DNA from: Spartobacteria bacterium AMD-G4
GTDB lineage: Bacteria > Verrucomicrobiota > Verrucomicrobiia > Chthoniobacterales > Terrimicrobiaceae
Reading direction: 5' to 3'
NCBI GenBank assembly: GCA_002290555.1
Contig: NEUK01000060.1
Location: 2,225-66,224 of the forward strand
DNA length: 64,000 nucleotides
The position numbers and the translations under genes are program-made. Positions within the stretch are counted from its first letter, which is position 1. Each line of letters begins with the position of its first letter. Under the pieces are notes generated by a model that saw only the letters and a program-made list of their open reading frames with translations, was not told the origin of the DNA and did not search any database. Shown piece after piece: positions 48,977 to 63,671 of this stretch.

Positions 48977-49915
48977 GTGCTTGCTTACTACATTCATGAT
49001 CTCAGTCCCTTTTTGATTCAGTTCAGCGAGAGCTTTGGACTCCGGTGGTATGGTCTCGCCTACGTGCTGGCGTTTGCCTCCGCATATGGCATCTGCCTCC
49101 ATCTTGCCCGGCGGGGCTACAGCGATATTCCAGCCCGAGACATAGGCGACTTCATCACTGGCACGGCGCTTTTTGGGGTCATTCTGGGAGGGCGACTTGG
49201 GTATGTGCTTTTTTACGATTGGCAAAATTTTTTGGGAAATCCGCTGGTTTTTTTCAGATTCTGGGATGGTGGCATGTCGAGCCACGGAGGCATTTTGGGC
49301 ATAGTGATTTTCACTTGGATTTACTCACGGAGAAAAAAAATTCCTTGGCTGAATATTGGTGACAACACGGTGGTAGCGGCGCCTGTCGGCCTCTTCCTCG
49401 GGCGGTGTGCAAACTTCATCAATGGGGAACTTTACGGGCGCACGACATCAGTGCCTTGGGCGGTTCAATTTCCCAAAGAGCTTTACGACGCCCCACCAGA
49501 AATCACACGCCAAGTTTTGCTCGAGGCATCGCAGATTGATCCAGCTTTCAACAGCCTTCCCGCCGTGGTGGAGAATGCGGGAGCATCGCCGGAGCTGCAC
49601 GGGCTCCTGGCAAAAAGCATCGCGCCGCGACACCCGTCACAGATTTACGAGGCCCTTCTGGAAGGGGCAGTGCTGTTTGCTATTCTTTGGGTTCTGAGGA
49701 CGCGGTTTCGCCTGCCTGATGGCGTTCTGACAGGTGTGTTTTTCATCGGCTATGCGATTTTACGGATTACCGGAGAATTTTTTCGGGAGCCGGACGCCCC
49801 GCTTACGCTTATGCTCACCCGCGGGCAGTTCCTCTCGGTCTTCCTGATCGCCATTGGCGTGGCTTTTCTGGTGGCGGCAAGAATCCGGCCAACATGGGCG
49901 CTAAAATTCCGTTGA
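48977..49915 (+). CDS. lgt: Prolipoprotein diacylglyceryl transferase
   Basis: LRWYGLAYVLAFASAYGICLHLARR...GGRLGYVLFYD...FFRFWDGGMSSHGGILG...LGRCANFINGELYGR...RHPSQIYEALLEG. GTG start. Confidence 0.93.
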   Translation: MLAYYIHDLSPFLIQFSESFGLRWYGLAYVLAFASAYGICLHLARRGYSDIPARDIGDFITGTALFGVILGGRLGYVLFYDWQNFLGNPLVFFRFWDGGMSSHGGILGIVIFTWIYSRRKKIPWLNIGDNTVVAAPVGLFLGRCANFINGELYGRTTSVPWAVQFPKELYDAPPEITRQVLLEASQIDPAFNSLPAVVENAGASPELHGLLAKSIAPRHPSQIYEALLEGAVLFAILWVLRTRFRLPDGVLTGVFFIGYAILRITGEFFREPDAPLTLMLTRGQFLSVFLIAIGVAFLVAARIRPTWALKFR

Positions 49916-50874
49916 TGAAAAAAACCGCCCTTCTTGCGTTTGTAATCCTCCTCCTCACCGTCATGGTCCTGTCGCAAATTCCCGCCTTCCAATCGACGCC
50001 CCGTCCGGCGGCCTCCTTTGAGGAGGCTCTGACAAAATTTGAAGCGTTGCAGCGCGAAGAGGCGACCCTCCCCCTGCGACCGGAAGGAGCCAGTCGCCTT
50101 CTTCACCACGGCCAAAAAACGGAACGCGTCTTTGTGCTTCTGCATGGTCTCACAAACTGTCCGGAGCAATTTGTGCCGTTTGCCAAAATCCTTCACGCGA
50201 AAGGTGCAAATGTAGTGATTCCCCGCGCCCGTCTCGCGGGGTTCGCAGACCGGCTTAACAAGGATCAAGGGCACCAAACGGCACAGGACTTGATCGATCA
50301 GGCTGCCACCGGCCTCGATATCGCGAGTGGGCTTGGCGACAGGATCACGCTTATCGGCCTCTCGGGCAGCGCGGTGGCGGCGGGGTGGATGGCACAAAAC
50401 CGCGAGGGCATTTACGATGCCATGCTCATAGCGCCTTTTTTTGGCATGTTTGGAGTTTCGCCTGCTGTTACCGATGCGGCAGCAGCAACGCTTTTGAAGC
50501 TGCCCAATTTTTACCAATGGTGGGATCCCTCGAAAAAAGAGACCCTGGCGGGCCCGATCTATGCCTATCCTCGCTTTGGAACACATTGCATGGCGGACAC
50601 GATCCAGCTTTCGCGGGCTGTGCGGAAGAATCTCAAGGAGCGCCCCGTTTTCGCCAAGCGGCTCGTTTTTCTAACCACGGCGAGCGACCGAGCGGCCAAT
50701 AATCTGCTGACCAACGAAATCTCGGAGCAACTAAAAACCCGAGAGGGAACGAGGGTGATCACCTACGAATTCCCGGAGTCGCTCGGCATACCGCATGACA
50801 TGATCGACCCAGCGCAACCACATGCAAACACGCCCCTGAGCTACTCAAAAATTCTCGAGCTCGTTGAAATATAG
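49915..50874 (+). CDS. Alpha/beta-fold hydrolase (secreted or membrane-anchored)
   Basis: From the ATG at 49915 (overlapping the lgt stop): MKKTALLAFVILLLTVMVLSQ. Then VFVLLHGLTNCPEQF and the nucleophile elbow LIGLSGSAVAAGW. Confidence 0.8.
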   Translation: MKKTALLAFVILLLTVMVLSQIPAFQSTPRPAASFEEALTKFEALQREEATLPLRPEGASRLLHHGQKTERVFVLLHGLTNCPEQFVPFAKILHAKGANVVIPRARLAGFADRLNKDQGHQTAQDLIDQAATGLDIASGLGDRITLIGLSGSAVAAGWMAQNREGIYDAMLIAPFFGMFGVSPAVTDAAAATLLKLPNFYQWWDPSKKETLAGPIYAYPRFGTHCMADTIQLSRAVRKNLKERPVFAKRLVFLTTASDRAANNLLTNEISEQLKTREGTRVITYEFPESLGIPHDMIDPAQPHANTPLSYSKILELVEI

Positions 50875-50943
50875 TTGTGCCAAATCCAGTGGTGGGCGGA
50901 TTTTTGCTGGAATGAAGGCGCTGGCGGTCGCAATGTGGAGTCT

Positions 50944-51297
50944 ATGCAAATTCACATCACTCCGCGAAACATTACCCTCACCGGCGCCATTCATGAATTT
51001 GTGGCCGAGAAAATCAGCCACCTCGAGGGTCATGGTGAAACGATTCTCGCCGCACATATCGTTCTTCTACACAACCACGACAGAAAGAAGCCTTACATCG
51101 TGAAGGTTCACCTTGCACTGAGCGGCCCCGATATTCATGCGGAAGACGCCGAAGCCGATCTCTATGTGGCGATCGACAAGGTCATCGACAAGCTCTCGCG
51201 TCAAATCAGCAAACTCAAAACCAAGAAAAAAGAGCACGACAAGCACCGCATCCAACAAAACCGCGAGGCGGAAAAACGCGGCTACAAGCGACCCTAA
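50944..51297 (+). CDS. hpf: Ribosome hibernation promoting factor (short HPF/RaiA type)
   Basis: From the ATG at 50944: MQIHITPRNITLTGAIHEFVAEKISHLEGHGETILAAHIVLL...YIVKVHLALSGPDIHAEDAEADLYVAIDKVIDKLSRQISKLK. Confidence 0.9.
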   Translation: MQIHITPRNITLTGAIHEFVAEKISHLEGHGETILAAHIVLLHNHDRKKPYIVKVHLALSGPDIHAEDAEADLYVAIDKVIDKLSRQISKLKTKKKEHDKHRIQQNREAEKRGYKRP

Positions 51298-51303
51298 GCT
51301 CGC

Positions 51304-52050
51304 GTGGAGGACTACAAGGTCAAACTCGATGTGTTCGAGGGTCCGCTCGATCTGTTGCTCTACCTCATCAAACGCGATGAGGTGGACATCTACGATATTT
51401 CGATCGAGCGGATCACCAAGCAATACATGGCCTACATTGAAGCCTTTCAGGTCCTGAACATCGAGCTGGCCGGCGAGTTCATTGTCATGGCTGCAAACCT
51501 CCTCTACATCAAAAGCCGGACGCTCCTCCCAGTGGATCAGCAGATGGCAGAGGAGGACGCCGAGGAGGATGATCCTCGCTTCGAGCTTATTCGACAGCTC
51601 ATCGAATACAAAAAGTTCAAAGAGGCGGCGGGACTTCTGCGCGATAACGAAACGGCTCAGTTGAACCTTTTTGCGCGTGTGCCCGTGACGCCGGATCTCG
51701 CCCCTTCCGAGAATCTCCTTGTGGAGGAGGTGGGGATTTTCGACCTCATCCATGCTTTTCAAAAAATCCTCAAGCGACTTGAAAAAAAGCCCGAAGACCT
51801 GCGTGAAATTTTTGCCGAGAATTTCACGGTTTCCGATAAAATTGAACTTGTCCTGCGCATCATGCAGGAAGGCATTCCTATCCGGTTTGAAGAACTCTTT
51901 GCTGATGCCGCCAGCCGCACGGAGATCGTAGTGACATTCCTTGCCATGCTGGAGCTCATAAGGCTCAAACAACTCCGCGTGCGTCAGGAGGCGGTTTGTG
52001 GTGAGATCTGGATTGATCGCGTGAGCAATACCCGCCCCGCTTTTGTATGA
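51304..52050 (+). CDS. scpA: Segregation and condensation protein A
   Basis: FEGPLDLLLYLIKRDEVDIYDISIERITKQYMAYIEAFQVLNIELAGEFIVMAANLLYIKSRTLLP. GTG start. Confidence 0.94.
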   Translation: MEDYKVKLDVFEGPLDLLLYLIKRDEVDIYDISIERITKQYMAYIEAFQVLNIELAGEFIVMAANLLYIKSRTLLPVDQQMAEEDAEEDDPRFELIRQLIEYKKFKEAAGLLRDNETAQLNLFARVPVTPDLAPSENLLVEEVGIFDLIHAFQKILKRLEKKPEDLREIFAENFTVSDKIELVLRIMQEGIPIRFEELFADAASRTEIVVTFLAMLELIRLKQLRVRQEAVCGEIWIDRVSNTRPAFV

Positions 52051-52793
52051 GTGAAGAACCCCCGACACCTGAATCCCAGTTCCCGCTCCACCGCATCATC
52101 GAGGCCGTCCTCTTTGCCTCTCAAAAACCCGTCTCCGCGAAAGAACTCACAGCCATTTTCAAAGGTGCTGCCGAGACGGGGAAGGACAAGCCAGAGGTAG
52201 CAGTCTTTGCCAAACTGAAGGCCGCCCAGATTCAGGAGGCGATTCAAAAGCTCGAACTCGAATATGCAGAAACCGGCCGTTCTTTTGAGGTGAGAGAGAG
52301 CGCCGCCGGCTGGCAACTCGTGACACGCGCTGACTTCGCACCTTGGCTGCGCCAGCTTTTTCCGGAGAACCGACAAGCCCGATTGAGCGCCCCGGCGATG
52401 GAAACGCTGGCTATTATCGCCTATCGGCAACCCATCACTCGCGCCGATATGGAAGCCGTGCGTGGCGTCGCAGTGGATGGTGTGCTCCAGACCCTGCTCG
52501 ACCGGAATCTGGTGAGGATTGCGGGACGCTCTGAGATCGCCGGACGCCCGCTTCTTTACGAGACCACCCAGTATTTCATGGATCATTTCGGATTGAAGAA
52601 TCTGGACGATCTTCCAAATGCCTCGGAACTCCGTCGTGTGGCACTCCCCAAAGCTGCCCCGCCTGAGGCAGTGCCTGGGCAATCCGACCTGGCGGCTGAG
52701 GAAAAAAAGACGGAACCAGCAGCCAGCGATTCACAACCCGCCGAGCCTCCACAGCCTGAAGAATCCGTAATCCAAGAGGAACCCCAGCCATGA
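52047..52793 (+). CDS. scpB: Segregation and condensation protein B (with an acidic, Pro-rich tail)
   Basis: IIEAVLFASQKPVSAKEL...GWQLVTRADFAPWL...LSAPAMETLAIIAYRQPITRADMEAVRGVAVDGVLQTLLDRNLVRIAGRSEIAGRPLLYETT. The ATGA start overlaps the scpA stop. Confidence 0.94.
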   Translation: MSEEPPTPESQFPLHRIIEAVLFASQKPVSAKELTAIFKGAAETGKDKPEVAVFAKLKAAQIQEAIQKLELEYAETGRSFEVRESAAGWQLVTRADFAPWLRQLFPENRQARLSAPAMETLAIIAYRQPITRADMEAVRGVAVDGVLQTLLDRNLVRIAGRSEIAGRPLLYETTQYFMDHFGLKNLDDLPNASELRRVALPKAAPPEAVPGQSDLAAEEKKTEPAASDSQPAEPPQPEESVIQEEPQP

Positions 52794-53623
52794 GCGATCT
52801 CGGAGAACTTCGCCAGCGCATCGACTCTCTCGATACCGAGTTGCTACGGCTTCTCAACGAGCGGGCCACTTTGGCAAAAGCGATCGGCGTCATCAAAAAC
52901 CGCGCCTCGCTTCCCATCTACTCGCCGGACCGGGAGATGAAACTTCTCAGGAGTCTGGTCGAGCGCAGTGAAGGTCCGCTACGCCCCGAATCCATCCGCG
53001 CTATTTACCGTGAAATCATGTCGGCCTCATTGGCTTTAGAAAACGACATCATTATCGCATGCCTCGGCCCTTCCGGCAGCTCGACACACCAGACTGCCAT
53101 TGCCAAATTCGGCTCCAGTGTCCGTTATACGACCCCAGTTTCAACCGCCGAGGTTCTTGAGCAAGTCAGCGCCAAAAAGGCCGACTGCGGAGTGATTCCC
53201 CTCGAGGATCCCGTTCATGGGTTCATGAATTCCACGCTGGACGAACTCGCGTGCACCGAACTTTCGATCTGTGCGGAAATCCTTCCCGAGGTGGATAATC
53301 AAAATCCGGTCACGAGGATACGCCATATCATTCTCGGCCATCAAATCAACGCGCCTACGGGAAGCGATCAGACCCTCATCATGCTTGGCATTGAAAACAA
53401 ACCCGGCTCGCTGGTTTCCGCGCTGGAGCCCTTTCGGCAAATGCAAGTCAACCTGGCCCACTTTGCGAGCCGCCCGTCCCTGGAAGACAGCGCCGACATG
53501 TTCTTTTTCGTGCAGACCGACGGCCACACCCGGGATTTGGAAGCCGTCGGCCTCCTTGAAGCACTCGCCAAAAGCTGCCGCTTGGTGAAAATTCTTGGGA
53601 GCTACCCGAAACCAGAACTTTGA
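52790..53623 (+). CDS. pheA: Chorismate mutase / prephenate dehydratase-like protein (unusually short, 277 aa)
   Basis: CM domain: LRQRIDSLDTELLRLLNERATLAKAIGVIK...IYSPDREMKLL. PDT start: IACLGPSGSSTHQTA...CGVIPLEDPVHG. ACT-like end: LIMLGIENKPGSLVSALEPFRQMQVNLAHFASRP...FFFVQTDGH. The middle of the PDT domain appears to be missing (see findings). Confidence 0.8.
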   Translation: MSDLGELRQRIDSLDTELLRLLNERATLAKAIGVIKNRASLPIYSPDREMKLLRSLVERSEGPLRPESIRAIYREIMSASLALENDIIIACLGPSGSSTHQTAIAKFGSSVRYTTPVSTAEVLEQVSAKKADCGVIPLEDPVHGFMNSTLDELACTELSICAEILPEVDNQNPVTRIRHIILGHQINAPTGSDQTLIMLGIENKPGSLVSALEPFRQMQVNLAHFASRPSLEDSADMFFFVQTDGHTRDLEAVGLLEALAKSCRLVKILGSYPKPEL

Positions 53624-54438
53624 AAACGATTCTTGACACAATTCTTGAAGATGTTCGCCGCGAAGTCGCAGAAGCAAAAAAAACGACACCTCTCGGCGAG
53701 ATTCAAGCCCGCCTCGCCGATGCACCGCCGGCCCGTGATTTCGTAGCTGCTCTTTCCAGCGACTTCGGCCTCATTGCCGAGATCAAAGAACGCTCGCCCA
53801 GCGTAGGCCCGATGCGCATTGAAAATGTCCACGCCGCTGTTGATGCCTACGCGGCTTCTCCGATTGTGAGAGCCGTTTCCGTCCTGACCAACCAGACACA
53901 CTTTGGGATGGATATCCACCGGCTTGGCGAGATTCGGAAACAAGTCCCCCAGCCCGTCCTACGGAAGGATTTTTTTGTGGAGGAGTATCAGGTTTATGAA
54001 GCCCGCGCCTTCGGAGCGGATGCCATTCTCCTGATGGCCAATGTGCTCGATGCAGCGACTATGCGACACCTCCACCAAGTCGCACTTGAGCTTGGCATGG
54101 AGGCGCTCTTCGAAATTCATACGACGGAGGAAATCGCCTCGCTGCCCGCTGGCGTACGCGTTGTTGGAATCAACAGCCGGAAATTCAAAACCCAATCGGG
54201 TTTCGTTGCAGCTGGCCAATCCTCGGCCACCGACTTCAGCCTCGACCTCGGAGTTTTCGACCTCGTGAATCTCCTTCCCCCATCAGCCATTCGCGTGGCA
54301 GAGAGCGGAATTTCTCCGCACAACCTTTCCGCAGTTGCGTCAAATTTTCAAGCCGCACTTGTAGGCACATCGCTCCTCCGTGATGAGCGCGGTATCCACG
54401 CTTGCCTTCGTGATTTCGAGATGGCGTGTCGCTCATGA
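53620..54438 (+). CDS. trpC: Indole-3-glycerol phosphate synthase
   Basis: ILDTILEDVRREV...GLIAEIKERSPSVG...AVSVLTNQTHFGMDIHRLGEIRKQVPQPVLRKDFFVEEYQVYEARAFGADAILLM...LFEIH...VGINSR. The TTG start overlaps the pheA stop. Confidence 0.92.
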   Translation: MKTILDTILEDVRREVAEAKKTTPLGEIQARLADAPPARDFVAALSSDFGLIAEIKERSPSVGPMRIENVHAAVDAYAASPIVRAVSVLTNQTHFGMDIHRLGEIRKQVPQPVLRKDFFVEEYQVYEARAFGADAILLMANVLDAATMRHLHQVALELGMEALFEIHTTEEIASLPAGVRVVGINSRKFKTQSGFVAAGQSSATDFSLDLGVFDLVNLLPPSAIRVAESGISPHNLSAVASNFQAALVGTSLLRDERGIHACLRDFEMACRS

Positions 54439-54815
54439 AATCACAACCCAAAGCCCACCGCGCCAGCGGCCGTATTGTGACGCTTTTTCTGCTCGCCCTG
54501 TGCGTTGCAGCATTTCTTTCAACCGTTTGGAATTATTCACGCAACCATGCTTTTGCAAAGAACGCCTCGCTGGACTCGAATGGAATGCCCTCTGTATTGA
54601 CCGCATCATTCGATCCGAAATCAAAAATTCAAGCGGGCCAACGGGTCGTCATCCGAATCGACGGCGACACTAAGCAAGTCCGTGGAGGAGTCATCAAAAA
54701 CCTGACGCCTCAGGGTATTGCCACGATTGAAACTGACGAGCAAGCCAGAGCGCCGCTTCACTCCAAGGCCAGCGTCAGTATCGACGGAACGATGGCCCCC
54801 CAGACAATGCCTTGA
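54435..54815 (+). CDS. Hypothetical membrane-anchored small protein
   Basis: From the ATG at 54435 (ATGA overlap with the trpC stop): MKSQPKAHRASGRIVTLFLLALCVAAFLSTVW, followed by a beta-rich ~80 aa. I recognise no family. Confidence 0.55.
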   Translation: MKSQPKAHRASGRIVTLFLLALCVAAFLSTVWNYSRNHAFAKNASLDSNGMPSVLTASFDPKSKIQAGQRVVIRIDGDTKQVRGGVIKNLTPQGIATIETDEQARAPLHSKASVSIDGTMAPQTMP

Positions 54816-54919
54816 GCGTTTCTGAGCAAGCACGAATCATGCAAAAATGTCGTAATAAATTGATTGCCTTTTTGTCGTAAACGACTAAACATTCTTCCCT
54901 CAACTAAATCGCACACTAT

Positions 54920-55240
54920 ATGGCTAACCTCACAAAACGTGATCTGGTAATGCAGATCAGTAAGAAAACCGGACTCACTCAACAGGAAGTATTCAGCGTC
55001 ATCCAACTCACATTGGATGGTATCACAGACGCCCTATCTACAGGCCGCGATGTCGAGCTGCGCAACTTTGGCGTCTTCGAGGTTCGCCTCACGAAATCAC
55101 GCGTTGGTCGCAATCCGAACAAACCGGAAAACGACGTCGTTATTCCAGCCCGTGCGACAGTTAAGTTCAAATCTGGAAAGATCATGCGCCAGCGCGTGCT
55201 TCTCCGCACCGAAGAACTGCGCGGAAACCAAGGCGCTTAA
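54920..55240 (+). CDS. HU/IHF-family DNA-binding protein
   Basis: MANLTKRDLVMQISKKTGLTQQEVFSVIQLTLDGITDALSTGRDVELRNFGVFEVRLTKSRVGRNPNKPENDVVIPARATVKFKSGK. Confidence 0.92.
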   Translation: MANLTKRDLVMQISKKTGLTQQEVFSVIQLTLDGITDALSTGRDVELRNFGVFEVRLTKSRVGRNPNKPENDVVIPARATVKFKSGKIMRQRVLLRTEELRGNQGA

Positions 55241-55258
55241 GCCAGCCGATCACTACGG

Positions 55259-58200
55259 GTGGAATTCATTCGGCTCCGCGGGGCCAGACAAAACAACCTT
55301 CAAGGGATTGATCTTGAGTTGCCTCTTGGCAAACTCATCGTGGTCACAGGCCCCAGCGGAAGCGGTAAGTCCAGTCTTGCCTTCGACACCATCTATGCCG
55401 AGGGACAAAGGCGCTATGTTGAGACATTCAGTCCATACACGCGCCAGTTCCTCGAGCGAATGGACAAACCACTTGCCGATAGCATTGAGGGCATTCCTCC
55501 CGCCATAGCCATCGAGCAGTCCAACAATGTCCGCACCACGCGGTCAACAGTTGGCACGATCACGGAAATCAATGACTACCTGAAGCTTCTCTTCCCGCGT
55601 GTTGCCAAGGGTTTTTGCCCAAAGTGCAAGGCGGAAGTCGTTCAGGGAACTCCCCATTCCATCCTGCGGCAAATCCTTGCCGACCACAGTGACAAAACGG
55701 TTTTCCTGACCTTCAGTGTCAAGGTTCCTGAAAAAACAGCGCCGAAGGAGTTTTTCGATTTCCTTGCTCAGCAAGGCTATCTGCGCATCTGGATCAAAGG
55801 CAAAATCCACCGCACCGACGAGGCACCCGAAATCCGGAAGCTTCCCGAGAGTGTTCTGGTTATTCAGGATCGCATCGATCTTGCAAACACTGCCCAAGCC
55901 CGCCTCTCCGAGGCTATCGAAGTCTCCCTCCGACTGGGGAATGATCGCTTGATGGTGATTGATTCGGAATCTGGAACACCCCACTCCCACACAGCGGGAT
56001 GGCATTGTTCCCACTGCGACATCGATATCCGGCCTCCATCTCCAGGCCTTTTTTCTTTCAATTCTCCGCTGGGGGCCTGCCCAGAGTGCAAGGGCTTCGG
56101 ACGCATCATCGGCATCGATATGCAGCGGGTCATTCCAGACCGCTCCCTTTCCATCTCAGACGGAGTCGTCCGCCCATTTCATAGTGGCCAATCCGCTGAA
56201 TGCCAAGACGATCTCATGCGCCATTGCAGAAAGCGTGGTATCGATACCGTCCGCTCTTTCGAACGGCTTTCCAAAGCGGACCAAGACTTTGTCATTCATG
56301 GTGATCCGAATGTTGATTCACGCCAAGCGTGGGACTCGGGTGATTGGTATGGAGTTGATGGATATTTTCAATGGCTCGAGAGCAAGACCTATAAAATGCA
56401 CGTCCGGGTGCTGCTCTCGCGCTACCGCAGTTACCAACCCTGCCCAAAGTGCCACGGTGGCCGATTCCAGCCCGATACGCTGAATTTTAAAATCCACCCG
56501 CCTGGCCTGACAATCGCAGATGTCGCTACAACTCCTCTCAAGCGCCTTGCACCGATTCTTGAATCCTTCGAGCTTCCCCCATCCGACTCCAGCGCACGCC
56601 TTGTTCACCAACAAGTCCTCTCCCGCGTCAACTATCTCTGCGAAATCGGATTAGGCTACCTGACTCTCGACCGTCCCACCCGCTCGCTTTCAGGTGGCGA
56701 AATCCAGCGCGTCAACCTCACCACCTGTCTCGGGGCATCTCTCGTCAATACCCTCTTCGTTCTCGATGAACCCAGCGTTGGCTTGCATCCACGCGACACC
56801 TCCCGCCTGATTGAGATCATGCGAGGCCTTCGTGACAAAGGCAACACCCTGCTGGTTGTGGAGCACGAAGAAGCAGTGATTCGCGCAGCGGATGAATTGG
56901 TCGATATTGGCCCGGGACGCGGCATTTCCGGCGGCCAGCTTCTTTACTGCGGCCCAGCCGAGAATTTTGCATCAGCTAAAAATTCACTCACAGCGGATTA
57001 CCTCCAAGGGAAAAAATCCATTCCCATCCCGAAAAATCGCCGCAAGGCCGAGGGCCATATCATTCTTAAAGGTGTCACGCACCACAATATCAAGAATCTC
57101 ACAGCCAAGTTCCCCCTGGGGGTCCTCTGTGCTGTAACGGGTGTTTCCGGATCTGGAAAAACCTCGCTCGTTCGTGATGTTCTTCACAGGCAACTTATTG
57201 GCGAGGATCCTGCCGAGGATGAGGCTGCGGGCTTTGTCAAATCGATCAGTGGTGACGAAGAAGTGGACGAGGTCGTCATGGTCGACCAGTCGCCCCTCGC
57301 CAAGACGCCACGATCAACCCCGGCCGTGTATCTTGGCGTTTACGAGCACATTCGAGACCTTTTTGCGGACACGCCAGCCGCAGAATCTGCCGGCTTCACC
57401 GCCTCCAGCTTTTCCTTCAATGCAGGAAACGGCCGTTGCGACCGCTGCAGCGGACTCGGATTCGAAAAAGTGGAAATGCAATTCCTCAGCGATCTCTTCC
57501 TGCGCTGCCCGGAATGTGATGGCACCCGCTTTCGCGCGCCTTTACTGAAAATCCAAGTCGGTGGAAAATCCATCCACGAGGTTCTGGAGATGACAGCCGC
57601 CGAGGCGATCACATTCTTCAAACCCCTTGACCCCAAGAAAAAAATCACGATTCCCTTGGAACTTCTCGGCGAGGTCGGCCTCGACTACCTGCGCCTCGGC
57701 CAGCCGGTCAACGCCCTCTCCGGAGGCGAATCCCAGCGCCTCAAGCTCGTCCACCACCTGATCCGCCAATCCCGCGAGAAGGCGCTCCTGATTTTCGACG
57801 AACCCACGACCGGCCTACACTTCGATGACGTGGCCCTTCTCATCAAGGTCTTCCACCGCCTCGTGGAGGAAGGCAACAGCGTCATCGTTATCGAGCACAA
57901 CCTCGAAGTCATCAAATGCGCGGACTGGGTCATCGACCTCGGTCCCGAAGGGGGAGATGAAGGGGGGAAAATCGTAGCTGCGGGGACTCCCGAAGACGTC
58001 GCAAGCGTTGCCGAATCTCTCACCGGTCAATTCCTCCAGCCGCTTCTGGCAGGACGCAGTGCTTTTTTACAGGAGCAACCCACCCGCCCGCGCCCGAAGA
58101 CTCCTCCATCCCGATTCATCACCGTGCGAGGCGCCCGCGAGCATAATTTAAAAAATATCGATGTGGATATCCCGAGGGACGGCATGGTCGTCGTCACAGG

Positions 58201-60742
58201 CTTGAGCGGCTCGGGCAAATCGACACTCGCCTTCGACATCCTCTTCGCCGAGGGCCAGCGCCGCTTCCTCGACAGCATGTCGGCCTACGCCCGCCAGTTC
58301 GTCGATCAACTGGAGAAGCCGGATGTGGACTCGATCGAAGGCCTGCCCCCAAGCGTGGCCATTGAGCAACGCGTTACGCGCGGTGGCGGAAAATCCACCG
58401 TCGCGACCGTCACCGAGATCTACCACTTTCTCCGCCTCCTCTTCTCGAAGCTCGGCACCCAATTCTGCCCCTCGTGCAATGTCGCCGTCGAAAACCGCAC
58501 GCCAACAGCCATCGCGGCTGAAGTCGACCAACGCGCCGCCAAGGGGCCGGTCAAAGTTTTCGCCAATCTCGTCAAGGGCCGTAAAGGCTTCCACACGGAT
58601 ATCGCCCGCGCAGCCGCCCGTCAGGGCATTACCACCCTCATCGTGGATGGCAGCGCGACTCCTGTGGAAGGCTTCCAAAAACTGGAGCGTTTCAAGGAAC
58701 ACACGATCGATGCCCTCGTTGGGGAACTGTCGGCCCCCGATGCAAAAAAATCCGACGAATTGGTCCGCAAAGCCCTCCGCATGGGTAAAGGCACCGCCCG
58801 TATGGAGGATGCAAAGGGCAAATCGACCATTCTCAGCACCGAGATGAATTGCCCGTCGTGCAGCCGCGCCTTTGAACCGCTCGACCCACGCCTTTTCTCC
58901 TTCAACTCTCCACACGGCTGGTGCAACCACTGCCGAGGCTTCGGAGAAGTCTGGAAGGGTCTCGGCGCGGAGGGGGATTTTGAGACCGCCATCGAAGCCG
59001 AACTCGATGAAGAGCGCCGCCACGAGGGCCTCGAGGATGATGAGCCCCGCCCCTGCCCGATCTGTAAAGGCACACGCCTCAACGAAACGGCCACTCATGT
59101 GCGGATTCAAAAGACATCCATCGCCGACTTCACCCGCTCGCCGGCGTCCGACGCCCTCTCGCTCTGCGACACGCTGAATTTCCAAGGCCCGGCCGCCGAG
59201 GTGGCCCGCGATGTGATCACCGAAATCCGCCAACGCCTGGAGTTCCTTGCCAAGGTCGGACTCGACTACCTTTCGCTCGACCGCAGCGCGAAGACCCTCT
59301 CCGGCGGGGAATCCCAGCGCATCCGCCTTGCCGCCCAGCTTGGCTCCAACCTGCGCGGTGTTCTTTATGTGCTGGACGAGCCGACCATCGGCCTCCATCC
59401 ACGCGACAACGAACGCCTCCTTGACGCCCTCCAGGCGCTGGCCAAAAAAGGAAACTCTCTCGTTATCGTCGAGCACGACGAGGAGACCATGCGTCGCGCC
59501 GACCGAATCCTCGACCTTGGTCCCGGCGCAGGCAGCCGTGGCGGCGAAGTCATCGCCTCCGGCACACTCCAGGAAATCCTGGACCATCCCACCTCGCTCA
59601 CCGGACGCGCACTCCGCGAGCCGATGAGGCACCCGATCCGCGGCGAGCGCCGCCCAACACCCACCGAGTGGCTCGAGCTCAAGGGCGCCCATCTTCACAA
59701 TATCAAAAACGAGAACGTGCGAATCCCCCTGCACCGTCTCAGCGTCCTCACAGGCGTCTCCGGTTCAGGAAAAAGCACCCTCATCCGGGGCATCGTCGTT
59801 CCAGCCGTTCGCGATGTCCTCACACGCAAACGCGCCCCTCTGCACTCGGACCTCCACAAGGGTATCGCCGGCTTTGAACCCCTCGGCGCCGTGCTTGAGG
59901 TGGACCAATCGCCCATCGGGAAAACTTCCCGCTCCACACCGGCAACCTACGTGAAGGTCTTCGACGAAATCCGCAAGGTTTTCTCCACCCTCCCCGCTGC
60001 CCGCATGCGCGGCTACACGGCAAGCCGGTTTTCCTTCAACAACGAGGGCGGACGCTGCGAAGCCTGCCTCGGCCAAGGCGTGATCAAGCTCGAGATGAAC
60101 TTCCTGCCGCCGTCCTACATGCCTTGCCAGGACTGCAATGGACGCCGCTACAACCCGGCCACGCTCGAGATCCTCTACAATGGAAAATCCATTGGCGATG
60201 TCATGGACATGACGATCGAACAGGCCACGGAATTCTTTGCCTCGCATCCGAAAATCCATCGCCCGCTCGCGCTTTTGCAGGAAACCGGACTCGGCTACCT
60301 CAAGCTCGGCCAACCCAGCCCCACACTGAGCGGCGGCGAAGCCCAACGCATCAAGCTCGTCACCCAACTCGCCCGCCGGGCCACACCCGGAGCCGAGGAA
60401 ATCCGCACCACCCGCAAGGGAAAATCCACCCTCTACGTCCTCGAGGAACCCACCATCGGCCTCCACGCCCACGACGTCGCCCAGCTCATCAATGTCCTCC
60501 ACCGCCTCGTCGATGAAGGCGGCACCGTCGTCGTCATCGAACACCACCTCGATGTCATCGCCGAAGCCGACCATGTCATCGATGTCGGCCCCGAAGCCGG
60601 TGCCAAAGGCGGAAAAATCATCGCCGAGGGAACCCCCGAAAAAGTCGCTCTTGTCAAAGGCAGCTGCACCGCCCCGTTCCTCCGAAAAATGCTCTGTATC
60701 GAGGAACCAAAAAAAGCCAAAACCCGCCCGAAAAAAGCTTAG
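55259..60742 (+). CDS. uvrA: Tandem UvrA-UvrA fusion protein (1827 aa, two complete UvrA-like units, four ABC ATPase modules)
   Basis: Unit 1 starts [53 protein letters not shown]. Unit 2 starts (~nt 58114) [53 protein letters not shown]. There are four Walker A sites ([36 protein letters not shown]), four LSGGE signature motifs, and CxxC zinc modules in both units. The reading frame is continuous through the linker ...[28 protein letters not shown].... Confidence 0.9.
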
Positions 60743-61600: not shown

Positions 61601-62479
61601 TCAGTCCGGCACGATTTCCGTGCCGATGCCCGCGTTGGTGAAAATCTCGAGGATCAAGCAATGTTGGATGTGCCCGCCGATCATGTGGATTTTTCCAACG
61701 CCGCGTTCCATAGCGGAAATGGCCGAAAGAACCTTCGGAATCATGCCGCCAGCGATGATTTTTTGCTGAATGAGGCTCTTCACCTGCTTGGTGGTGACGC
61801 TGGGAATGAGGGATTCGAGGTCTGCGGCGTCGCGCATGATGCCCGGAACATCGGTGACATAGATGAGCTTGGTGGCCTTGAGTTCCGCCGCGAGGGCCGC
61901 CGCTGCGATGTCGGCATTGATGTTTAAGACAACGCCCTCTGGCGTGGCTCCGATGGGGCTGATGACGGGGACGATTTCCGCATGCACCGCCTCCTGCACG
62001 GCTCCGGCATTCACTTCCTGGGCCTCCCCGACGAAACCGATCTCGATGGTCTCCCCATCGATGACGGCCTGCTTCTGAAGCTGGCGCGCGATGAAAACAT
62101 TTTTCCCGGAAAAGCCCTGTGCACAGCCACCGAATTCATTGATGGTCGAAACAATGGAGGGGTTGATTTCCTGGTCGAGTGTCTCCTCCACAATCTTGAT
62201 CGCCGTGGCATTTGTGGCCCTGAGACCCTCGATGAAGCGGGCCTGAAGGCCGGCGTCTTTCATGCGGGCGGTGATCGCCTTGCCCCCGCCGTGAACGAGG
62301 ACGGGATTGATGCCGGCCGCTTCAAGAAAAACAACATCACGCAGGAATTTGTCGACGATCTGCTCATCCTCCATCGCGGACCCACCGTATTTGATGACGA
62401 AGGTCTGGCCGCGATATTTTTGAAGGTAGGGAAGCGCCTCGATCAGGCATTCGGAGCGAACTTCGGGTGTGGTGAGCAT
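61601..62479 (-). CDS. argB: Acetylglutamate kinase
   Basis: LPYLQKYRGQTFVIKYGGSAMEDEQ...PVLVHGGGKAI...GFVGEAQEVN...VISPIG...NINADIAAAALAAELKATKLIYVTDVPG. Confidence 0.95.
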   Translation of the reverse strand: MLTTPEVRSECLIEALPYLQKYRGQTFVIKYGGSAMEDEQIVDKFLRDVVFLEAAGINPVLVHGGGKAITARMKDAGLQARFIEGLRATNATAIKIVEETLDQEINPSIVSTINEFGGCAQGFSGKNVFIARQLQKQAVIDGETIEIGFVGEAQEVNAGAVQEAVHAEIVPVISPIGATPEGVVLNINADIAAAALAAELKATKLIYVTDVPGIMRDAADLESLIPSVTTKQVKSLIQQKIIAGGMIPKVLSAISAMERGVGKIHMIGGHIQHCLILEIFTNAGIGTEIVPD

Positions 62480-62483
62480 GGGT

Positions 62484-63671
62484 TTATTCGCCGAGGTTCA
62501 GACGCACATATTCTTCGGTGAGGTCAGTGGTCCAGACATAGTAGGAGCCATTCCCGAGCTTGAGATCGACGGTCACCTTGAAGGATTTTTTCGCTGCGAC
62601 GGCACGGAGTTTTTCAAAGGGTGTCTTCGCGGCAATGCCGTTTTTCACCGAGGCGAGCTTGTCGTAGAAAATATCGGCCTTCGTGTCATCGACCTTTACG
62701 CCGCAATATCCAACGGCGTCGAGGATTCGGCCCCAATTCGGATCGCCGCCGGCCCAGGCACACTTCACAAGCGTGGAATTCGCGATGGCCTCGGCGGCTG
62801 TGCGGGCCTCCTTGTCGTTGGCCGCTCCGGTGACCTCGACTTCGACAAAACGCGAAACCCCCTCGCCGTCGCTCACGATCATTCGCGCCAGGGCGCGCGT
62901 GACTTCATCCAGCGCCTGGGAAAAAGCGGAGATGTCCGGAGTGCAGGCGCTGAGGCCATTGGCGAGGAGAATGACCGTATCGTTCGTGCTCATGTCGCCA
63001 TCGATCGTGATGCGGTTGAAGGAGTTTGCGACCGAACGCTTCAGCTCGGCACGTAGAGCTGGCTGGGGGATGATGGCATCCGTTGTCACCACGCACAGCA
63101 TGGTGGCCATGTTCGGATCGATCATTCCAGCTCCTTTGGCGATGCCTCCCACGCGGAACGAGCCCTTGGGAGTTTTCACCTCAACCGCATATTCCTTGGC
63201 GAAGGTATCGCTGGTCATGATGGCCGCGGCACACGCAGCGCTGCCATTCCGCGAGGGCTTCAGCGCCGCGATGCCTTTGGCGACGCGGTCCATCGGCATG
63301 GGAACCCCGATTCGACCAGTTGAGCAAACGAGGACCTCCTTTGGTTTCAATCCCAGAAGATCCGCCGTGCCCGCGCACATGGTGCGGGCGTCTTTGAGAC
63401 CATTTTCACCGGTGCAGGCGTTGGCATTGCCACTGTTGAGAATCACAGCGCGGTTTGCGCCGGCCTTGAGATGCTCGGACGAAATGCGAACCGGCGCGGC
63501 TTTGACCTTGTTGGTGGTGAAGGTCGCCGCAGAGGTGGCTGGGGATTCCGAGAAAACCACGGCCACATCGTCACGCATCACCTTGCCATTTTTGATTCCA
63601 CAACCAGAAGCCCCGGCAACAAAGCCCCGTGCGGCGCAGACGCCGCCTTTCATTTTTTTGATTTCGATCAT
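62484..63671 (-). CDS. argJ: Bifunctional ornithine acetyltransferase / N-acetylglutamate synthase
   Basis: GGVCAARGFVAGASGCGIK...NSGNANACTG...GGIAKGAGMIDPNMATMLCVVTTDA...DGDMSTNDT...WTTDLTEEYVRLN. Confidence 0.95.
   Translation of the reverse strand: MIEIKKMKGGVCAARGFVAGASGCGIKNGKVMRDDVAVVFSESPATSAATFTTNKVKAAPVRISSEHLKAGANRAVILNSGNANACTGENGLKDARTMCAGTADLLGLKPKEVLVCSTGRIGVPMPMDRVAKGIAALKPSRNGSAACAAAIMTSDTFAKEYAVEVKTPKGSFRVGGIAKGAGMIDPNMATMLCVVTTDAIIPQPALRAELKRSVANSFNRITIDGDMSTNDTVILLANGLSACTPDISAFSQALDEVTRALARMIVSDGEGVSRFVEVEVTGAANDKEARTAAEAIANSTLVKCAWAGGDPNWGRILDAVGYCGVKVDDTKADIFYDKLASVKNGIAAKTPFEKLRAVAAKKSFKVTVDLKLGNGSYYVWTTDLTEEYVRLNLGE

What the first reader, a model, noticed from the sequence alone, without database searches (positions are those of the whole stretch)
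55259..60742. Single 1827-aa polypeptide made of two complete UvrA units (a covalent UvrA dimer mimic)
UvrA normally is ~940 aa and acts as a homodimer. This continuous ORF contains two full UvrA-like units joined by a short Pro-rich linker (...[36 protein letters not shown]..., ~nt 58030-58113), which gives four Walker A sites, four LSGGE signatures and duplicated zinc modules.

The halves are clearly diverged, not a recent duplication or an assembly repeat. They are also asymmetric. Unit 1 has ~125 aa between its CPECKGFG and CPKCHGGR zinc knuckles, so its insertion domain is present. Unit 2 has only ~45 aa between CNHCRGFG and CPICKGTR, so its insertion domain is largely missing. Both retain a segment in the position of the UvrB-binding domain.

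I recall that duplicated UvrA-like proteins have been listed among UvrA paralogue classes, but I cannot verify that here. To my knowledge their function is not established. A fixed heterodimer-like arrangement would allow functional specialisation of the two halves. An HU/IHF-like gene lies 18 nt upstream.
Basis: partly seen in the sequence, partly recalled or inferred. Interest (0 to 1): 0.65.

Follow-up and report, generated by a model that had tools for sequence, protein, structure and literature searches.

The report
Asymmetric double-length UvrA repair protein
This is a real, conserved gene that fuses two copies of the DNA-damage sensor UvrA into one protein, and only the first copy keeps the parts that dock the partner protein UvrB; such double UvrAs are common in public genomes, but I found no study of them.

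Summary
ORF 55259-60742 (+) encodes 1827 aa made of two UvrA units (36% identical) joined by a 22-aa Pro-rich linker. It has four Walker A sites, four LSGGE signatures and six zinc modules. It is not an assembly artefact. An independent metagenome contig crosses the junction with no indels. At least 120 homologue clusters and 35 complete genome loci keep the fusion in frame.

The fusion is old and widespread: Verrucomicrobiota, Beta- and Gammaproteobacteria, Binatia, Spirochaetes and Desulfobacterota. N units and C units form separate clades, each with 100% bootstrap support and mirrored branching.

The two halves are specialised. The N unit keeps the insertion domain and the conserved UvrB-docking residues (equivalents of E. 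coli R216/E222). The C unit has lost the insertion domain and those residues (K1164/R1170). It keeps all ATPase motifs, the Zn3 module and a conserved DNA-binding arginine patch.

Best reading: a hard-wired asymmetric single-chain UvrA "dimer" with one UvrB dock. Intramolecular pairing and a role in excision repair are inferred, not shown. Related Verrucomicrobiales also carry single-unit UvrAs, so it may be an accessory sensor.

Tandem UvrAs are already annotated (Chlamydia CT333, NCBIfam PRK00635). This is a new member of a known but unstudied kind.

The parts
55259..60742 (+). Tandem (double-length) uvrA gene, 1827 aa, GTG start
   Evidence: ORF list and translation. TIGR00630 scores 2029 bits against a cutoff of 729.8. 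At least 120 full-length homologue clusters. An independent contig shows no indels.
55259..58048 (+). N unit (aa 1-930): full class-I-like UvrA with NBD-I, NBD-II, Zn1-3, UvrB-binding domain and insertion domain
   Evidence: A single hit spans PRK00349 positions 4-941. It falls in the N-unit clade, 100% bootstrap. All ATPase motifs are intact.
55631..55993 (+). N-unit UvrB-binding domain (aa 125-245) with the conserved docking signature R176, D204, R205, R215, E221 (R215/E221 are equivalent to E. coli R216/E222)
   Evidence: PF17760, E=4.4e-14. The signature RDRRE is found in 32 of 36 N units and in nearly all single UvrAs. Pairwise alignment to Mtb UvrA agrees. R216/E222 are the UvrB interaction surface (PMC3025350).
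56102..56434 (+). N-unit insertion domain (aa 282-392), between Zn2 knuckles C274 and C395
   Evidence: PF17755, E=4.3e-10. All 36 N units have 98-129 residues here.
58049..58114 (+). Inter-unit linker [22 protein letters not shown] (aa 931-952)
   Evidence: Coordinates. In the other tandem genes compared, the homologous linkers are 20-61 aa, unconserved, rich in P/S/A/K/R, and always in frame. The AF2 model gives pLDDT below 50 here.
58115..60739 (+). C unit (aa 953-1827): UvrA core with both ATPase sites and Zn1-3, a degenerate UvrB-binding domain and no insertion domain. Net charge +11 against -11 for the N unit.
   Evidence: C-unit clade, 100% bootstrap. Motifs. The AF2 model (pLDDT 75.7) matches class I UvrA structures at TM 0.74-0.76. 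Charge.
58481..58837 (+). C-unit degenerate UvrB-binding-domain fold (aa 1075-1193). Docking signature replaced: T1126, G1155, gap, K1164, R1170.
   Evidence: PF17760, E=1.8e-13. Predicted folded, block pLDDT about 60-90. The signature is lost in all 34 C units of this family. An independent phmmer alignment to Mtb and E. coli UvrA shows the same substitutions.
58946..59053 (+). Stump replacing the insertion domain in the C unit (aa 1230-1265, between C1222 and C1266)
   Evidence: 34 residues occupy the insertion-domain columns, against 111 in the N unit. There is no PF17755 hit. The model shows one helix with pLDDT about 50-58.
59972..60028 (+). C-unit DNA-binding arginine patch: R1572, R1582, R1584, R1590 (equivalent to E. 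coli R712/R722/R724/R730)
   Evidence: These are 94-100% conserved in the C clade. In the window's N unit only R699 is kept; the others are E709, A711 and S717. The E. coli quadruple mutant is the DNA-binding mutant (PMC3025350).
60431..60466 (+). Walker B of the fourth NBD (distal site of the C unit), [12 protein letters not shown]: Glu1729 in place of the Walker B Asp
   Evidence: D to E in 16/16 Verrucomicrobiota C units. Asp in 18/18 other C units, 34/34 N units and 18/18 single UvrAs.
54920..55240 (+). HU/IHF-family gene 18 nt upstream (context only; probably not functionally linked)
   Evidence: PF00216, E=1.5e-24. The adjacency is conserved only in L001 and L003.

Best explanation
The gene encodes a single-chain, hard-wired asymmetric UvrA. 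It belongs to an old and widely distributed family of tandem UvrA paralogues.

Shown:
- Two UvrA units are fused in frame.
- All four ABC ATPase sites and all six zinc modules are intact.
- The N unit keeps every class I feature, including the insertion domain and the conserved UvrB/Mfd-docking residues.
- The C unit has lost the insertion domain and those docking residues. It keeps a strongly conserved DNA-binding arginine patch and the Zn3 module, and it is more basic.

Inferred:
- The two units pair with each other, as the two protomers of a canonical UvrA2 dimer do, and form one DNA-binding groove with four nucleotide sites.
- Only one composite UvrB site survives, so the protein would recruit a single UvrB through the N unit. 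Docking of that UvrB would displace the only insertion domain and hand the DNA over. This makes permanent the asymmetry that a homodimeric UvrA2 acquires only on a lesion (recognition-ID versus support-ID, and the UvrA2UvrB1 intermediate).
- It therefore acts as a UvrB-dependent damage sensor in nucleotide excision repair.

Unknown: whether it is this organism's main sensor or an accessory one.
For: Reality and conservation:
- establish the ORF and the junction.
- At least 120 clusters of about 1,750-1,880 aa at 65-99% identity.
- 35 complete in-frame tandem genes from at least 7 phylum- or class-level groups.

Single old fusion with co-inherited halves: the N clade and the C clade each have 100% bootstrap support and mirrored topologies.

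Intact catalytic and zinc motifs.

Asymmetry:
- The insertion domain has 98-121 residues in all 34 N units of this family and 11-38 in 32 of its 34 C units.
- The docking signature RDRRE is present in 32/36 N units and in about all single UvrAs, and in 0/34 C units of this family.
- Independent pairwise alignments confirm this.
- E. coli R216A/E222A is the published UvrB-interaction-surface mutant. Deleting residues 131-248 (the UvrB-binding domain) abolishes NER (PMC3025350).
- The C unit keeps all four DNA-binding Arg residues at 94-100% conservation. It is more basic than the N unit in 28/35 tandem genes.

The C-unit model is a class I UvrA fold, TM 0.74-0.76 to 3uwx/2r6f against 0.61-0.64 to class II structures.

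Complementary loss is tolerable only if N pairs with C. Fusion followed by one-sided loss recurred independently: Poribacteria lost the insertion domain in the C unit but kept RDRRE, and other configurations appear in the representative library.

Mechanistic frame, from Mtb cryo-EM (PMC11985968):
- The two insertion domains play different roles.
- UvrB docking on a protomer excludes that protomer's insertion-domain contact with DNA.
- Each UvrB contacts a UvrB-binding domain and the signature II domain of the opposite protomer.
- A UvrA2UvrB1 state exists.

Genomic context is housekeeping (lgt, scpA, scpB, pheA, trpC, HU | uvrA | argB, argJ). It is not a biosynthetic or defence island.
Against: - No direct test of intramolecular pairing was possible. 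The chain is 1827 aa and the prediction limit is 1200 aa. No tandem UvrA has a solved structure.
- No UvrB, UvrC or Mfd gene was seen among the window ORFs that were annotated, and the rest of the genome could not be searched.
- Related Verrucomicrobiales carry single-unit UvrAs with intact docking residues. In L007 one lies 558 nt downstream of the tandem gene. The tandem protein need not be the primary NER sensor.
- Its units are slightly less similar to E. coli UvrA (47-49% over core columns) than the Verrucomicrobial singles are (52%). That fits a diverged paralogue.
- The C-unit UvrB-binding domain is still folded and under some constraint. It may bind something, possibly UvrB in a non-canonical way.
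- The N-unit changes in the Arg patch lie at positions that are only 50-61% conserved among canonical single UvrAs, so that half of the 'division of labour' is weak.
- The tree is neighbour-joining with only 50 bootstrap replicates and midpoint rooting.
Confidence: 0.5

Rival explanations
1. A symmetric covalent dimer mimic. The two units pair as a UvrA2 dimer, both UvrB-binding domains work, and the protein loads two UvrB like a canonical UvrA2UvrB2 complex.
For: Both halves hit PF17760. The C-unit domain is predicted to fold. Some other tandem UvrA families do keep the docking signature in both units, for example P0126, P0138, P0150 and P0173.
Against: In this family the C unit has lost every conserved docking residue, with a charge reversal at the E222 position. 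This holds in 34/34 members. Those positions are unconserved within the C clade, where the commonest residue reaches only 17-41%. That pattern indicates relaxed constraint, not a new fixed interface.
Confidence: 0.1
2. The units do not pair with each other. Each pairs with the same unit of a second chain (N:N' and C:C'), giving a dimer of tandems or chains. One UvrA2-like module would be competent for UvrB and the other would be a DNA-binding or ATPase module.
For: Each unit is a complete UvrA core and should in principle be able to form the canonical dimer interface. Linkers of 20-61 aa constrain geometry only weakly. Nothing here tests quaternary structure.
Against: A C:C' module would have no insertion domain and no UvrB dock, so strict co-inheritance of both halves over at least 7 phyla would be hard to explain. 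One-sided degeneration after fusion recurs independently. That is the expected result when the fused partners are each other's obligate partners.
Confidence: 0.15
3. An accessory UvrA paralogue that works outside canonical excision repair. Examples would be clearing DNA-bound drugs or adducts, as class II UvrAs do (Ecm16, DrrC, UvrA2), or another DNA-surveillance role, while a separate single-unit UvrA carries out NER.
For: Verrucomicrobiales have single-unit UvrAs with intact UvrB docks alongside the tandem gene, and in L007 the two are adjacent. The tandem family also occurs in Beta- and Gammaproteobacteria, where from general knowledge a canonical uvrA is universal, so it is an extra copy there. 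The units are more diverged from E. coli UvrA than the singles are. Known UvrA paralogues have non-NER roles (PMC9328131, PMC10192343; found).
Against: Class II proteins lack the UvrB-binding domain. Here the N-unit domain and its R216/E222 equivalents are 94-100% conserved across the family, which argues for continued coupling to UvrB or Mfd. There is no biosynthetic cluster or resistance context. The C-unit model is closer to class I structures than to class II.
Confidence: 0.15
4. An artefact: two adjacent uvrA paralogues joined by a sequencing or assembly error that removed a stop codon or introduced a frameshift.
For: Logan contigs of three runs fragment around 57.9-58.3 kb. One related locus, L062 from a Nanopore-derived MAG, reads as two ORFs.
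Against: An independent 13.6-kb contig spans the junction with no indels. At least 120 clusters and 35 complete genome loci keep the fusion in frame with linkers of different sequence and length. The break in L062 sits at an A7 homopolymer and reads through into a plausible linker.
Confidence: 0.01

Closest known systems
Canonical class I UvrA (E. coli b4058; Geobacillus 2R6F/3UWX; T. maritima 3PIH; M. tuberculosis 3ZQJ/9GA2-5; C. thermocellum 9GX*)
   Same: Each unit has the UvrA core: two ABC NBDs with intact Walker A, Q-loop, signature, Walker B and H-loop, plus three zinc modules. The N unit also has the UvrB-binding domain with the R216/E222 equivalents and the insertion domain. Each half scores above the TIGR00630 cutoff (994 and 1041 bits against 729.8). 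The C-unit model matches at TM 0.74-0.76.
   Different: Two units sit in one chain instead of forming a homodimer of about 940-aa chains. The C unit lacks the insertion domain and the UvrB-docking residues. The units are only 36% identical to each other and 47-49% identical to E. coli UvrA over core columns. Each half alone falls below the stricter PRK00349 cutoff (1010 and 1057 bits against 1147).
Chlamydial double-length UvrA (C. trachomatis CT333, 1786 aa; NCBIfam NF001885 / PRK00635, 1809 positions)
   Same: It is also a UvrA of about 1,800 aa annotated as UvrABC subunit A (PMC6686042). The window protein aligns collinearly across the model's mid-point (query 386-1103 against model 390-1091). 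Chlamydiae and Verrucomicrobiota both belong to the PVC superphylum.
   Different: The window protein scores 1255 bits against a curated cutoff of 3054, so it is not a member of that equivalog. No chlamydial sequence could be obtained here, so common origin of the two fusions is untested. The function of the chlamydial protein is also uncharacterised; Tn insertions in it are tolerated in culture.
Class II UvrA paralogues (D. radiodurans UvrA2 2VF7, Ecm16 7SH1, DrrC) and their tandem forms of about 1,600 aa
   Same: They are diverged UvrA paralogues that have shed one accessory domain. Tandem versions exist: at least 20 representatives of about 1,590-1,680 aa with no UvrB-binding domain in either unit.
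   Different: Class II proteins lack the UvrB-binding domain and keep the insertion domain. The window's C unit does the opposite: the fold is kept and the insertion domain is lost. Its N unit is fully class I. The PDB sequence and fold matches to class II are weaker (621 and 467 bits against 879; TM 0.61-0.64).
Lesion-induced asymmetric states of homodimeric UvrA2 (M. tuberculosis UvrA2-DNA, UvrA2UvrB1-DNA; PMC11985968)
   Same: One insertion domain acts as the 'recognition' domain and the other as 'support'. One UvrB binds first. UvrB docking and the insertion-domain contact with DNA on the same protomer are mutually exclusive. The tandem protein has exactly one insertion domain and one competent dock.
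   Different: In the homodimer the asymmetry is transient and either protomer can take either role. Here it is encoded in the sequence. The resemblance is functional inference only.

Membership tests
UvrA (excinuclease ABC subunit A; TIGR00630 / PRK00349) | Score above the curated family cutoff | tested here: met
   Whole protein: TIGR00630 2029 bits (cutoff 729.8) and PRK00349 2061 bits (cutoff 1147). Each half passes TIGR00630 (994 and 1041 bits). Each half alone is below PRK00349 (1010 and 1057 bits).
UvrA (excinuclease ABC subunit A; TIGR00630 / PRK00349) | Two ABC nucleotide-binding domains per unit with intact Walker A, Q-loop, LSGGE signature, Walker B and H-loop | tested here: met
   All four NBDs are intact. 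The only deviation is Walker B LEEP instead of LDEP in NBD 4.
UvrA (excinuclease ABC subunit A; TIGR00630 / PRK00349) | Three zinc modules per unit, including the C-terminal Zn3 finger | tested here: met
   Twelve CxxC knuckles sit at the expected alignment columns in both units.
Class I (NER-proficient) UvrA | UvrB-binding domain with the UvrB/Mfd interaction residues (E. coli R216, E222) | tested here: met
   The N unit has R215/E221 and the full RDRRE signature. This holds for the N unit only. The C unit has K1164/R1170 and G/gap at the D205/R206 positions, so for that unit the feature is not met.
Class I (NER-proficient) UvrA | Insertion domain between the Zn2 knuckles | tested here: met
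   N unit: PF17755 hit, 111 residues. C unit: no hit, 34 residues, so not met for that unit.
Class I (NER-proficient) UvrA | Functions with UvrB and UvrC in damage-dependent incision; uvrB and uvrC present in the genome | not testable with these tools
   No uvrB or uvrC was seen among the window ORFs that were annotated.
Class I (NER-proficient) UvrA | Head-to-head dimer of two UvrA cores forming one DNA groove (here: intramolecular N-C pairing) | not testable with these tools
   The 1827-aa chain exceeds the 1200-aa prediction limit. No tandem UvrA is in the PDB. Only the C unit was modelled.
Chlamydia-type double UvrA (NCBIfam NF001885 / PRK00635) | Score above the curated cutoff of the 1809-position equivalog model | tested here: not met
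   1254.9 bits against a cutoff of 3054.
Class II UvrA (UvrA2 / Ecm16 / DrrC type) | Absence of the UvrB-binding domain | tested here: not met
   PF17760 is present in both units. 119-121 residues occupy those alignment columns in each unit.
Tandem UvrA family of this window (N: class-I-like; C: degenerate UvrB-binding domain, no insertion domain) | N unit and C unit fall in the respective orthologous clades, with an in-frame linker | tested here: met
   WIN_N lies in the N clade and WIN_C in the C clade, both at 100% bootstrap. Both lie inside the Verrucomicrobiota subclades, also at 100%. Linker.

The most novel reading that the evidence does not exclude
The protein is a natural, obligately asymmetric single-chain UvrA. 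It would load exactly one UvrB in a fixed geometry: the N unit supplies the only insertion domain and the only dock, and the C unit is a dedicated DNA-clamp and ATPase half. In Verrucomicrobiota the distal ATP site of the C unit is additionally retuned by the Walker B D-to-E change. If so, evolution has repeatedly hard-wired the transient UvrA2UvrB1 intermediate. The family would then be a ready-made tool for open NER questions: A2B1 versus A2B2 stoichiometry, which protomer senses and which hands off, and the separate roles of the four ATP sites.
Probability: 0.35. Interest if true: 0.6.

Novelty: new member of a known kind. Interest (0 to 1): 0.42.

Why it matters
UvrA is textbook as a homodimer. 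How a symmetric dimer produces an asymmetric pre-incision complex with one UvrB is still debated: UvrA2UvrB2 versus UvrA2UvrB1, recognition-ID versus support-ID, and the roles of the proximal and distal ATP sites (PMC11985968).

This gene belongs to a large family, annotated but with no study I could find, in which the two 'protomers' are fused and have diverged in complementary ways. The four ATP sites, the two DNA-binding halves and the single UvrB dock can therefore each be mutated separately in one polypeptide. That is impossible in a homodimer.

It also shows that genome annotation currently gives several architecturally distinct proteins the same name, 'excinuclease ABC subunit UvrA'. 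These include tandem, insertion-domain-less and dock-less forms. This matters when repair capacity is inferred from gene lists.

For this particular window the finding is ordinary. It is a chromosomal, vertically inherited member of that family.

Tried and rejected
1. Literature. Nine full-text searches looked for duplicated, tandem or class III UvrA. None found a paper describing tandem UvrA function. Goosen & Moolenaar 2008 and Timmins 2009, which I recall as classifying UvrA paralogues, are not held, so that recollection is unverified.

2. Does the same genome hold a single uvrA?
- P0060 (Terrimicrobium) is not on record for context look-up.
- Read laying refuses loci that come from the look-up of encoding contigs.
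- Laying four metagenomes that hold this organism on the L007 single uvrA at 80% likeness caught only short conserved ABC motifs from many genes. That result is uninformative.
- The two remaining homologue searches showed single-unit UvrAs in Luteolibacter and Akkermansiaceae, not in the window's own order.

3. A 'split' ancestor. L062 reads as two adjacent ORFs, but the break lies at an A7 run in a Nanopore-derived MAG and reads through into a linker-like peptide. It cannot count as a true split form.

4. HU as a functional partner: rejected. The adjacency occurs only in L001 and L003, and no gene is shared next to the tandem uvrA across 39 loci.

5. Promoter and terminator scan: counts are at background.

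6. RNA evidence: only two runs of unknown type hold 21% of the sampled words. Not pursued.

7. Recombination as the cause of the GC3 step inside the gene. The identity profile against L002, L001 and L003 shows no sharp break, and downstream genes share the higher GC3. The cause remains unexplained.

8. Full-length structure prediction of the intramolecular dimer is not possible under the 1200-aa limit. Domain-deleted constructs would still be about 1,440 aa.

Full report
1. THE OBSERVATION

The window holds one ORF, 55259..60742 on the + strand, 1827 aa, GTG start. Its translation has no internal stop.

BLASTP of aa 1-935 against aa 948-1827 aligns the two halves end to end at 36% identity (344/952). 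Counts on the translation:
- four Walker A sites (aa 31, 628, 981, 1499)
- four LSGGE signatures (aa 477, 820, 1347, 1690)
- twelve CxxC knuckles

The Zn2 knuckles are 121 aa apart in unit 1 and 44 aa apart in unit 2. The linker [22 protein letters not shown] is aa 931-952, nt 58049-58114.

Pfam finds the UvrB-interaction domain PF17760 in both halves and the insertion domain PF17755 only in the first. NCBIfam scores the protein at 2029 bits on TIGR00630 (cutoff 729.8). An HU-family gene ends 18 nt upstream.

2. IT IS NOT AN ARTEFACT

Four public metagenomes from different studies hold this sequence. One 13.6-kb contig (depth 35) covers 54800-60061 with 25 substitutions and no indel, and the tool reports no inserted or deleted letters in any run.

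The protein database holds at least 120 clusters of about 1,750-1,880 aa at 65-99% identity. Those that carry names come from Verrucomicrobiota: Terrimicrobium sacchariphilum, Terrimicrobiaceae and Chthoniobacterales. The source is therefore a freshwater member of Chthoniobacterales or a close relative.

In the species-representative genome collection, 35 complete tandem genes were recovered. In the tandem genes compared, the linkers are 20-61 aa, unrelated in sequence, of low complexity, and always in frame.

3. DISTRIBUTION AND ORIGIN

Tandem genes of this family occur in Verrucomicrobiota (Chthoniobacterales, Akkermansiaceae, Roseibacillus), Gammaproteobacteria (Marinimicrobium, Gilvimarinus, Steroidobacteraceae), Burkholderiales, Binatia, Spirochaetes and Desulfobacterota.

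I built a neighbour-joining tree of 106 UvrA units (819 columns, 50 bootstraps). All N units fall in one clade and all C units in another, each with 100% support. The internal branching is mirrored, and the Verrucomicrobiota subclades are at 100% in both. Adding E. coli UvrA and Verrucomicrobial single UvrAs gave the same picture. This points to one old duplication and fusion whose halves have been inherited together since.

Two Poribacteria tandems are different. Their N and C units are sisters (72% support), which suggests an independent duplication.

In a library of 1.84 billion representatives clustered at 50% identity, at least 120 of the best 150 hits to the C unit are tandem UvrAs of many kinds:
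- class-II-like doubled forms of about 1,600 aa
- forms that are fully class-I-like in both units
- the window's type
- a Binatia type
- a Poribacteria type
- forms with the unit order reversed

Fusing UvrA units is therefore a recurrent evolutionary event, not a rarity.

4. ANATOMY: THE HALVES ARE SPECIALISED

All ATPase motifs and zinc modules are canonical in both units. There is one exception. The Walker B motif of the fourth NBD reads LEEP, not LDEP (Glu1729). This D-to-E change is present in 16/16 Verrucomicrobiota C units and absent from all other units examined.

The insertion domain has 98-121 residues in every N unit of this family. It has 11-38 residues in every C unit of the family except the basal Binatia, which have 101-108. 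The independently derived Poribacteria C units have only 7.

The new finding concerns the UvrB-binding domain. Five positions are nearly invariant in canonical UvrAs: the equivalents of E. coli D205, R206, R216 and E222, plus an Arg at window position 176.
- They read RDRRE in 32/36 N units.
- They read RDRRE in 0/34 C units of this family, where they are also unconserved among the C units themselves.
- In the window's C unit they are T1126, G1155, a gap, K1164 and R1170. The last is a charge reversal.

Independent phmmer alignments of each domain to Mtb and E. coli UvrA give the same correspondences. R216A/E222A is the published 'UvrB interaction surface' mutant of E. coli UvrA, and deleting residues 131-248 abolishes repair (PMC3025350).

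The C-unit domain still scores on PF17760 (E=1.8e-13) and is predicted to fold, with block pLDDT about 60-90. The insertion-domain stump is one low-confidence helix. The model matches class I UvrA structures at TM 0.74-0.76 and class II structures at 0.61-0.64.

In the other direction, the four arginines whose joint mutation abolishes DNA binding in E. coli (R712, R722, R724, R730) are all kept in the C unit (R1572, R1582, R1584, R1590) and are 94-100% conserved in the C clade. The window's N unit keeps only the first. These positions are only 50-61% conserved in canonical singles, so this half of the argument is weaker.

The C unit is also more basic: +11 against -11 in the window, and C exceeds N in 28/35 tandem genes.

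5. HOW IT MOST LIKELY WORKS

Inferred: the N and C units pair like the two protomers of UvrA2. A protomer that has lost both accessory functions can only be tolerated as the obligate partner of one that keeps them. One-sided loss after fusion has also recurred independently.

The cryo-EM work on M. tuberculosis UvrA gives the frame (PMC11985968):
- The two insertion domains of a homodimer take different roles on a lesion.
- UvrB docking on a protomer is mutually exclusive with that protomer's insertion-domain contact with DNA.
- Each UvrB touches a UvrB-binding domain and the signature II domain of the opposite protomer.
- A UvrA2UvrB1 intermediate exists.

Mapped onto this protein, one UvrB would dock on the N-unit binding domain, against the C-unit signature II domain. 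It would displace the only insertion domain and receive the DNA. The distal ATP site is implicated in discriminating damaged from native DNA (PMC7835731). In Verrucomicrobiota the distal site of the C unit carries the Walker B D-to-E change.

I put this asymmetric single-chain model at about 0.5.

6. WHAT REMAINS OPEN

I could not determine whether this organism has another uvrA.
- The window has none.
- No uvrB or uvrC was seen among the window ORFs I annotated.

In the sister order Verrucomicrobiales, single-unit UvrAs with intact docking residues are common. They have no insertion domain (about 800 aa) or a 41-45-residue stump (about 860-940 aa). Named examples are Luteolibacter sp. AS25, L. 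algae, L. yonseiensis and Akkermansiaceae. In locus L007 one lies 558 nt downstream of the tandem gene on the same strand.

The tandem family is also present in Proteobacteria, where from general knowledge a canonical uvrA is universal. The tandem protein may therefore be an accessory sensor.

Against a UvrB-independent, class-II-like role: the N-unit dock is strictly conserved across the whole family, and the context is housekeeping (lgt, scpA, scpB, pheA, trpC, HU | uvrA | argB, argJ) with no conserved neighbour.

7. COMPARISON WITH WHAT IS KNOWN

- It is a member of the UvrA family by every sequence criterion tested.
- It is not a member of the chlamydial double-UvrA equivalog PRK00635 (1255 bits against a cutoff of 3054). 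C. trachomatis CT333 is documented as a 1,786-aa UvrA (PMC6686042), so the double-length architecture is already known from annotation.
- It is not class II, because the UvrB-binding domain is present.
- No tandem UvrA has a solved structure.
- No paper in the searchable library discusses their function.
- I recall that Goosen & Moolenaar (2008) listed duplicated UvrA classes, but that paper is not held, so the recollection stays unverified.

8. VERDICT

Novelty: a new member of a known, annotated but uncharacterised kind.

Interest is moderate. The complementary degeneration of the two halves is a clean, testable lead on an open mechanistic question in bacterial excision repair. This particular gene, however, is an ordinary, vertically inherited representative of a large family.

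Noticed in passing
window 60431-60466 (aa 1725-1736): The Walker B motif of the fourth ATPase site reads LEEP instead of LDEP. The Asp-to-Glu change is fixed in all 16 Verrucomicrobiota C units and absent from every other UvrA unit examined. It is a lineage-specific change in the distal site of the stripped-down unit, and its effect is unknown.
   Followed up: partly
window about 57569 (inside the N unit, roughly 500 nt before the unit junction): Third-position GC jumps from 0.59 to 0.74 at a single change point (2*dLL = 45). Tandem genes in relatives show no such step (|diff| at most 0.044). Upstream genes have GC3 of 0.57-0.66 and downstream argB/argJ have 0.70-0.73. The boundary of a regional compositional shift therefore lies inside the gene. 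No sharp identity break against relatives was seen. Unexplained.
   Followed up: partly
L007 16369-18789 (and P0271-P0511): A Verrucomicrobiota MAG carries a single-unit UvrA of about 800 aa, with an intact UvrB dock and no insertion domain, 558 nt downstream of its tandem uvrA on the same strand. Two families of such single UvrAs (about 800 aa with no insertion domain, and about 860-940 aa with a 41-45-residue stump) are widespread in Luteolibacter and Akkermansiaceae. In those genomes the only full insertion domain may be the one in the tandem protein's N unit.
   Followed up: partly
L035 9944-15724; L060 9878-15841 (Poribacteria): The tandem UvrAs of Poribacteria appear to come from an independent duplication: their N and C units are sisters at 72% bootstrap. 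Their C units also lost the insertion domain (7 residues left) but kept the UvrB-docking signature RDRRE. This is convergent loss of the second insertion domain after fusion.
   Followed up: partly
L024 and L033 (Binatia): The basal Binatia members of the family keep a full-length insertion domain in the C unit (101-108 residues) but have already lost the docking residues. In this family the UvrB dock degenerated before the insertion domain was lost.
   Followed up: partly
L062 12700-12940: An uncultured deltaproteobacterial MAG (a Microflora Danica MAG, apparently Nanopore-derived) shows the two units as separate overlapping ORFs. The frame break coincides with A7 homopolymer runs, and read-through gives a linker-like peptide. 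A TTG start for a genuine second gene is also possible. It is unclear whether this is a true split form or a sequencing error.
   Followed up: partly
L064, L067, L069, L075, L076, L078: Stand-alone UvrAs of about 840 aa in Nitrospira/Nitrospirota, Thermodesulfovibrionales and Saccharicenans keep the UvrB-binding domain but have only 14-27 residues in place of the insertion domain. They cluster with canonical single UvrAs, not with the tandem C units. UvrA without an insertion domain seems to be a normal state in several phyla.
   Followed up: no
P0196, P0204, P0212, P0225, P0230-P0236, P0240-P0242, P0250, P0251, P0254, P0264, P0268-P0270 (representative library): At least 20 representatives of about 1,590-1,680 aa are tandem UvrAs in which both units lack the UvrB-binding domain and keep the insertion domain, that is, class II doubled. 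Other representatives have both units fully class-I-like, reversed unit order, or lengths of about 2,340 aa.
   Followed up: partly
window 57925-58294, 58267-58391, 60169-60331: Logan contigs of three metagenomes fragment into short pieces of differing depth just around the unit junction. One run has contigs that skip 123 nt (in frame) and 161 nt inside the C unit. The likely cause is strain microdiversity or cross-assembly between conserved UvrA motifs. Not examined.
   Followed up: no
window 26310-27821, 38733-40448, 43711-46860, 48977-54438, 61601-63671: The surrounding genes are ordinary chromosomal housekeeping genes: secY, mutL, an AcrB-family RND pump, lgt, scpA, scpB, a chorismate mutase/prephenate dehydratase, trpC, and then argB and argJ on the opposite strand.
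   Followed up: no
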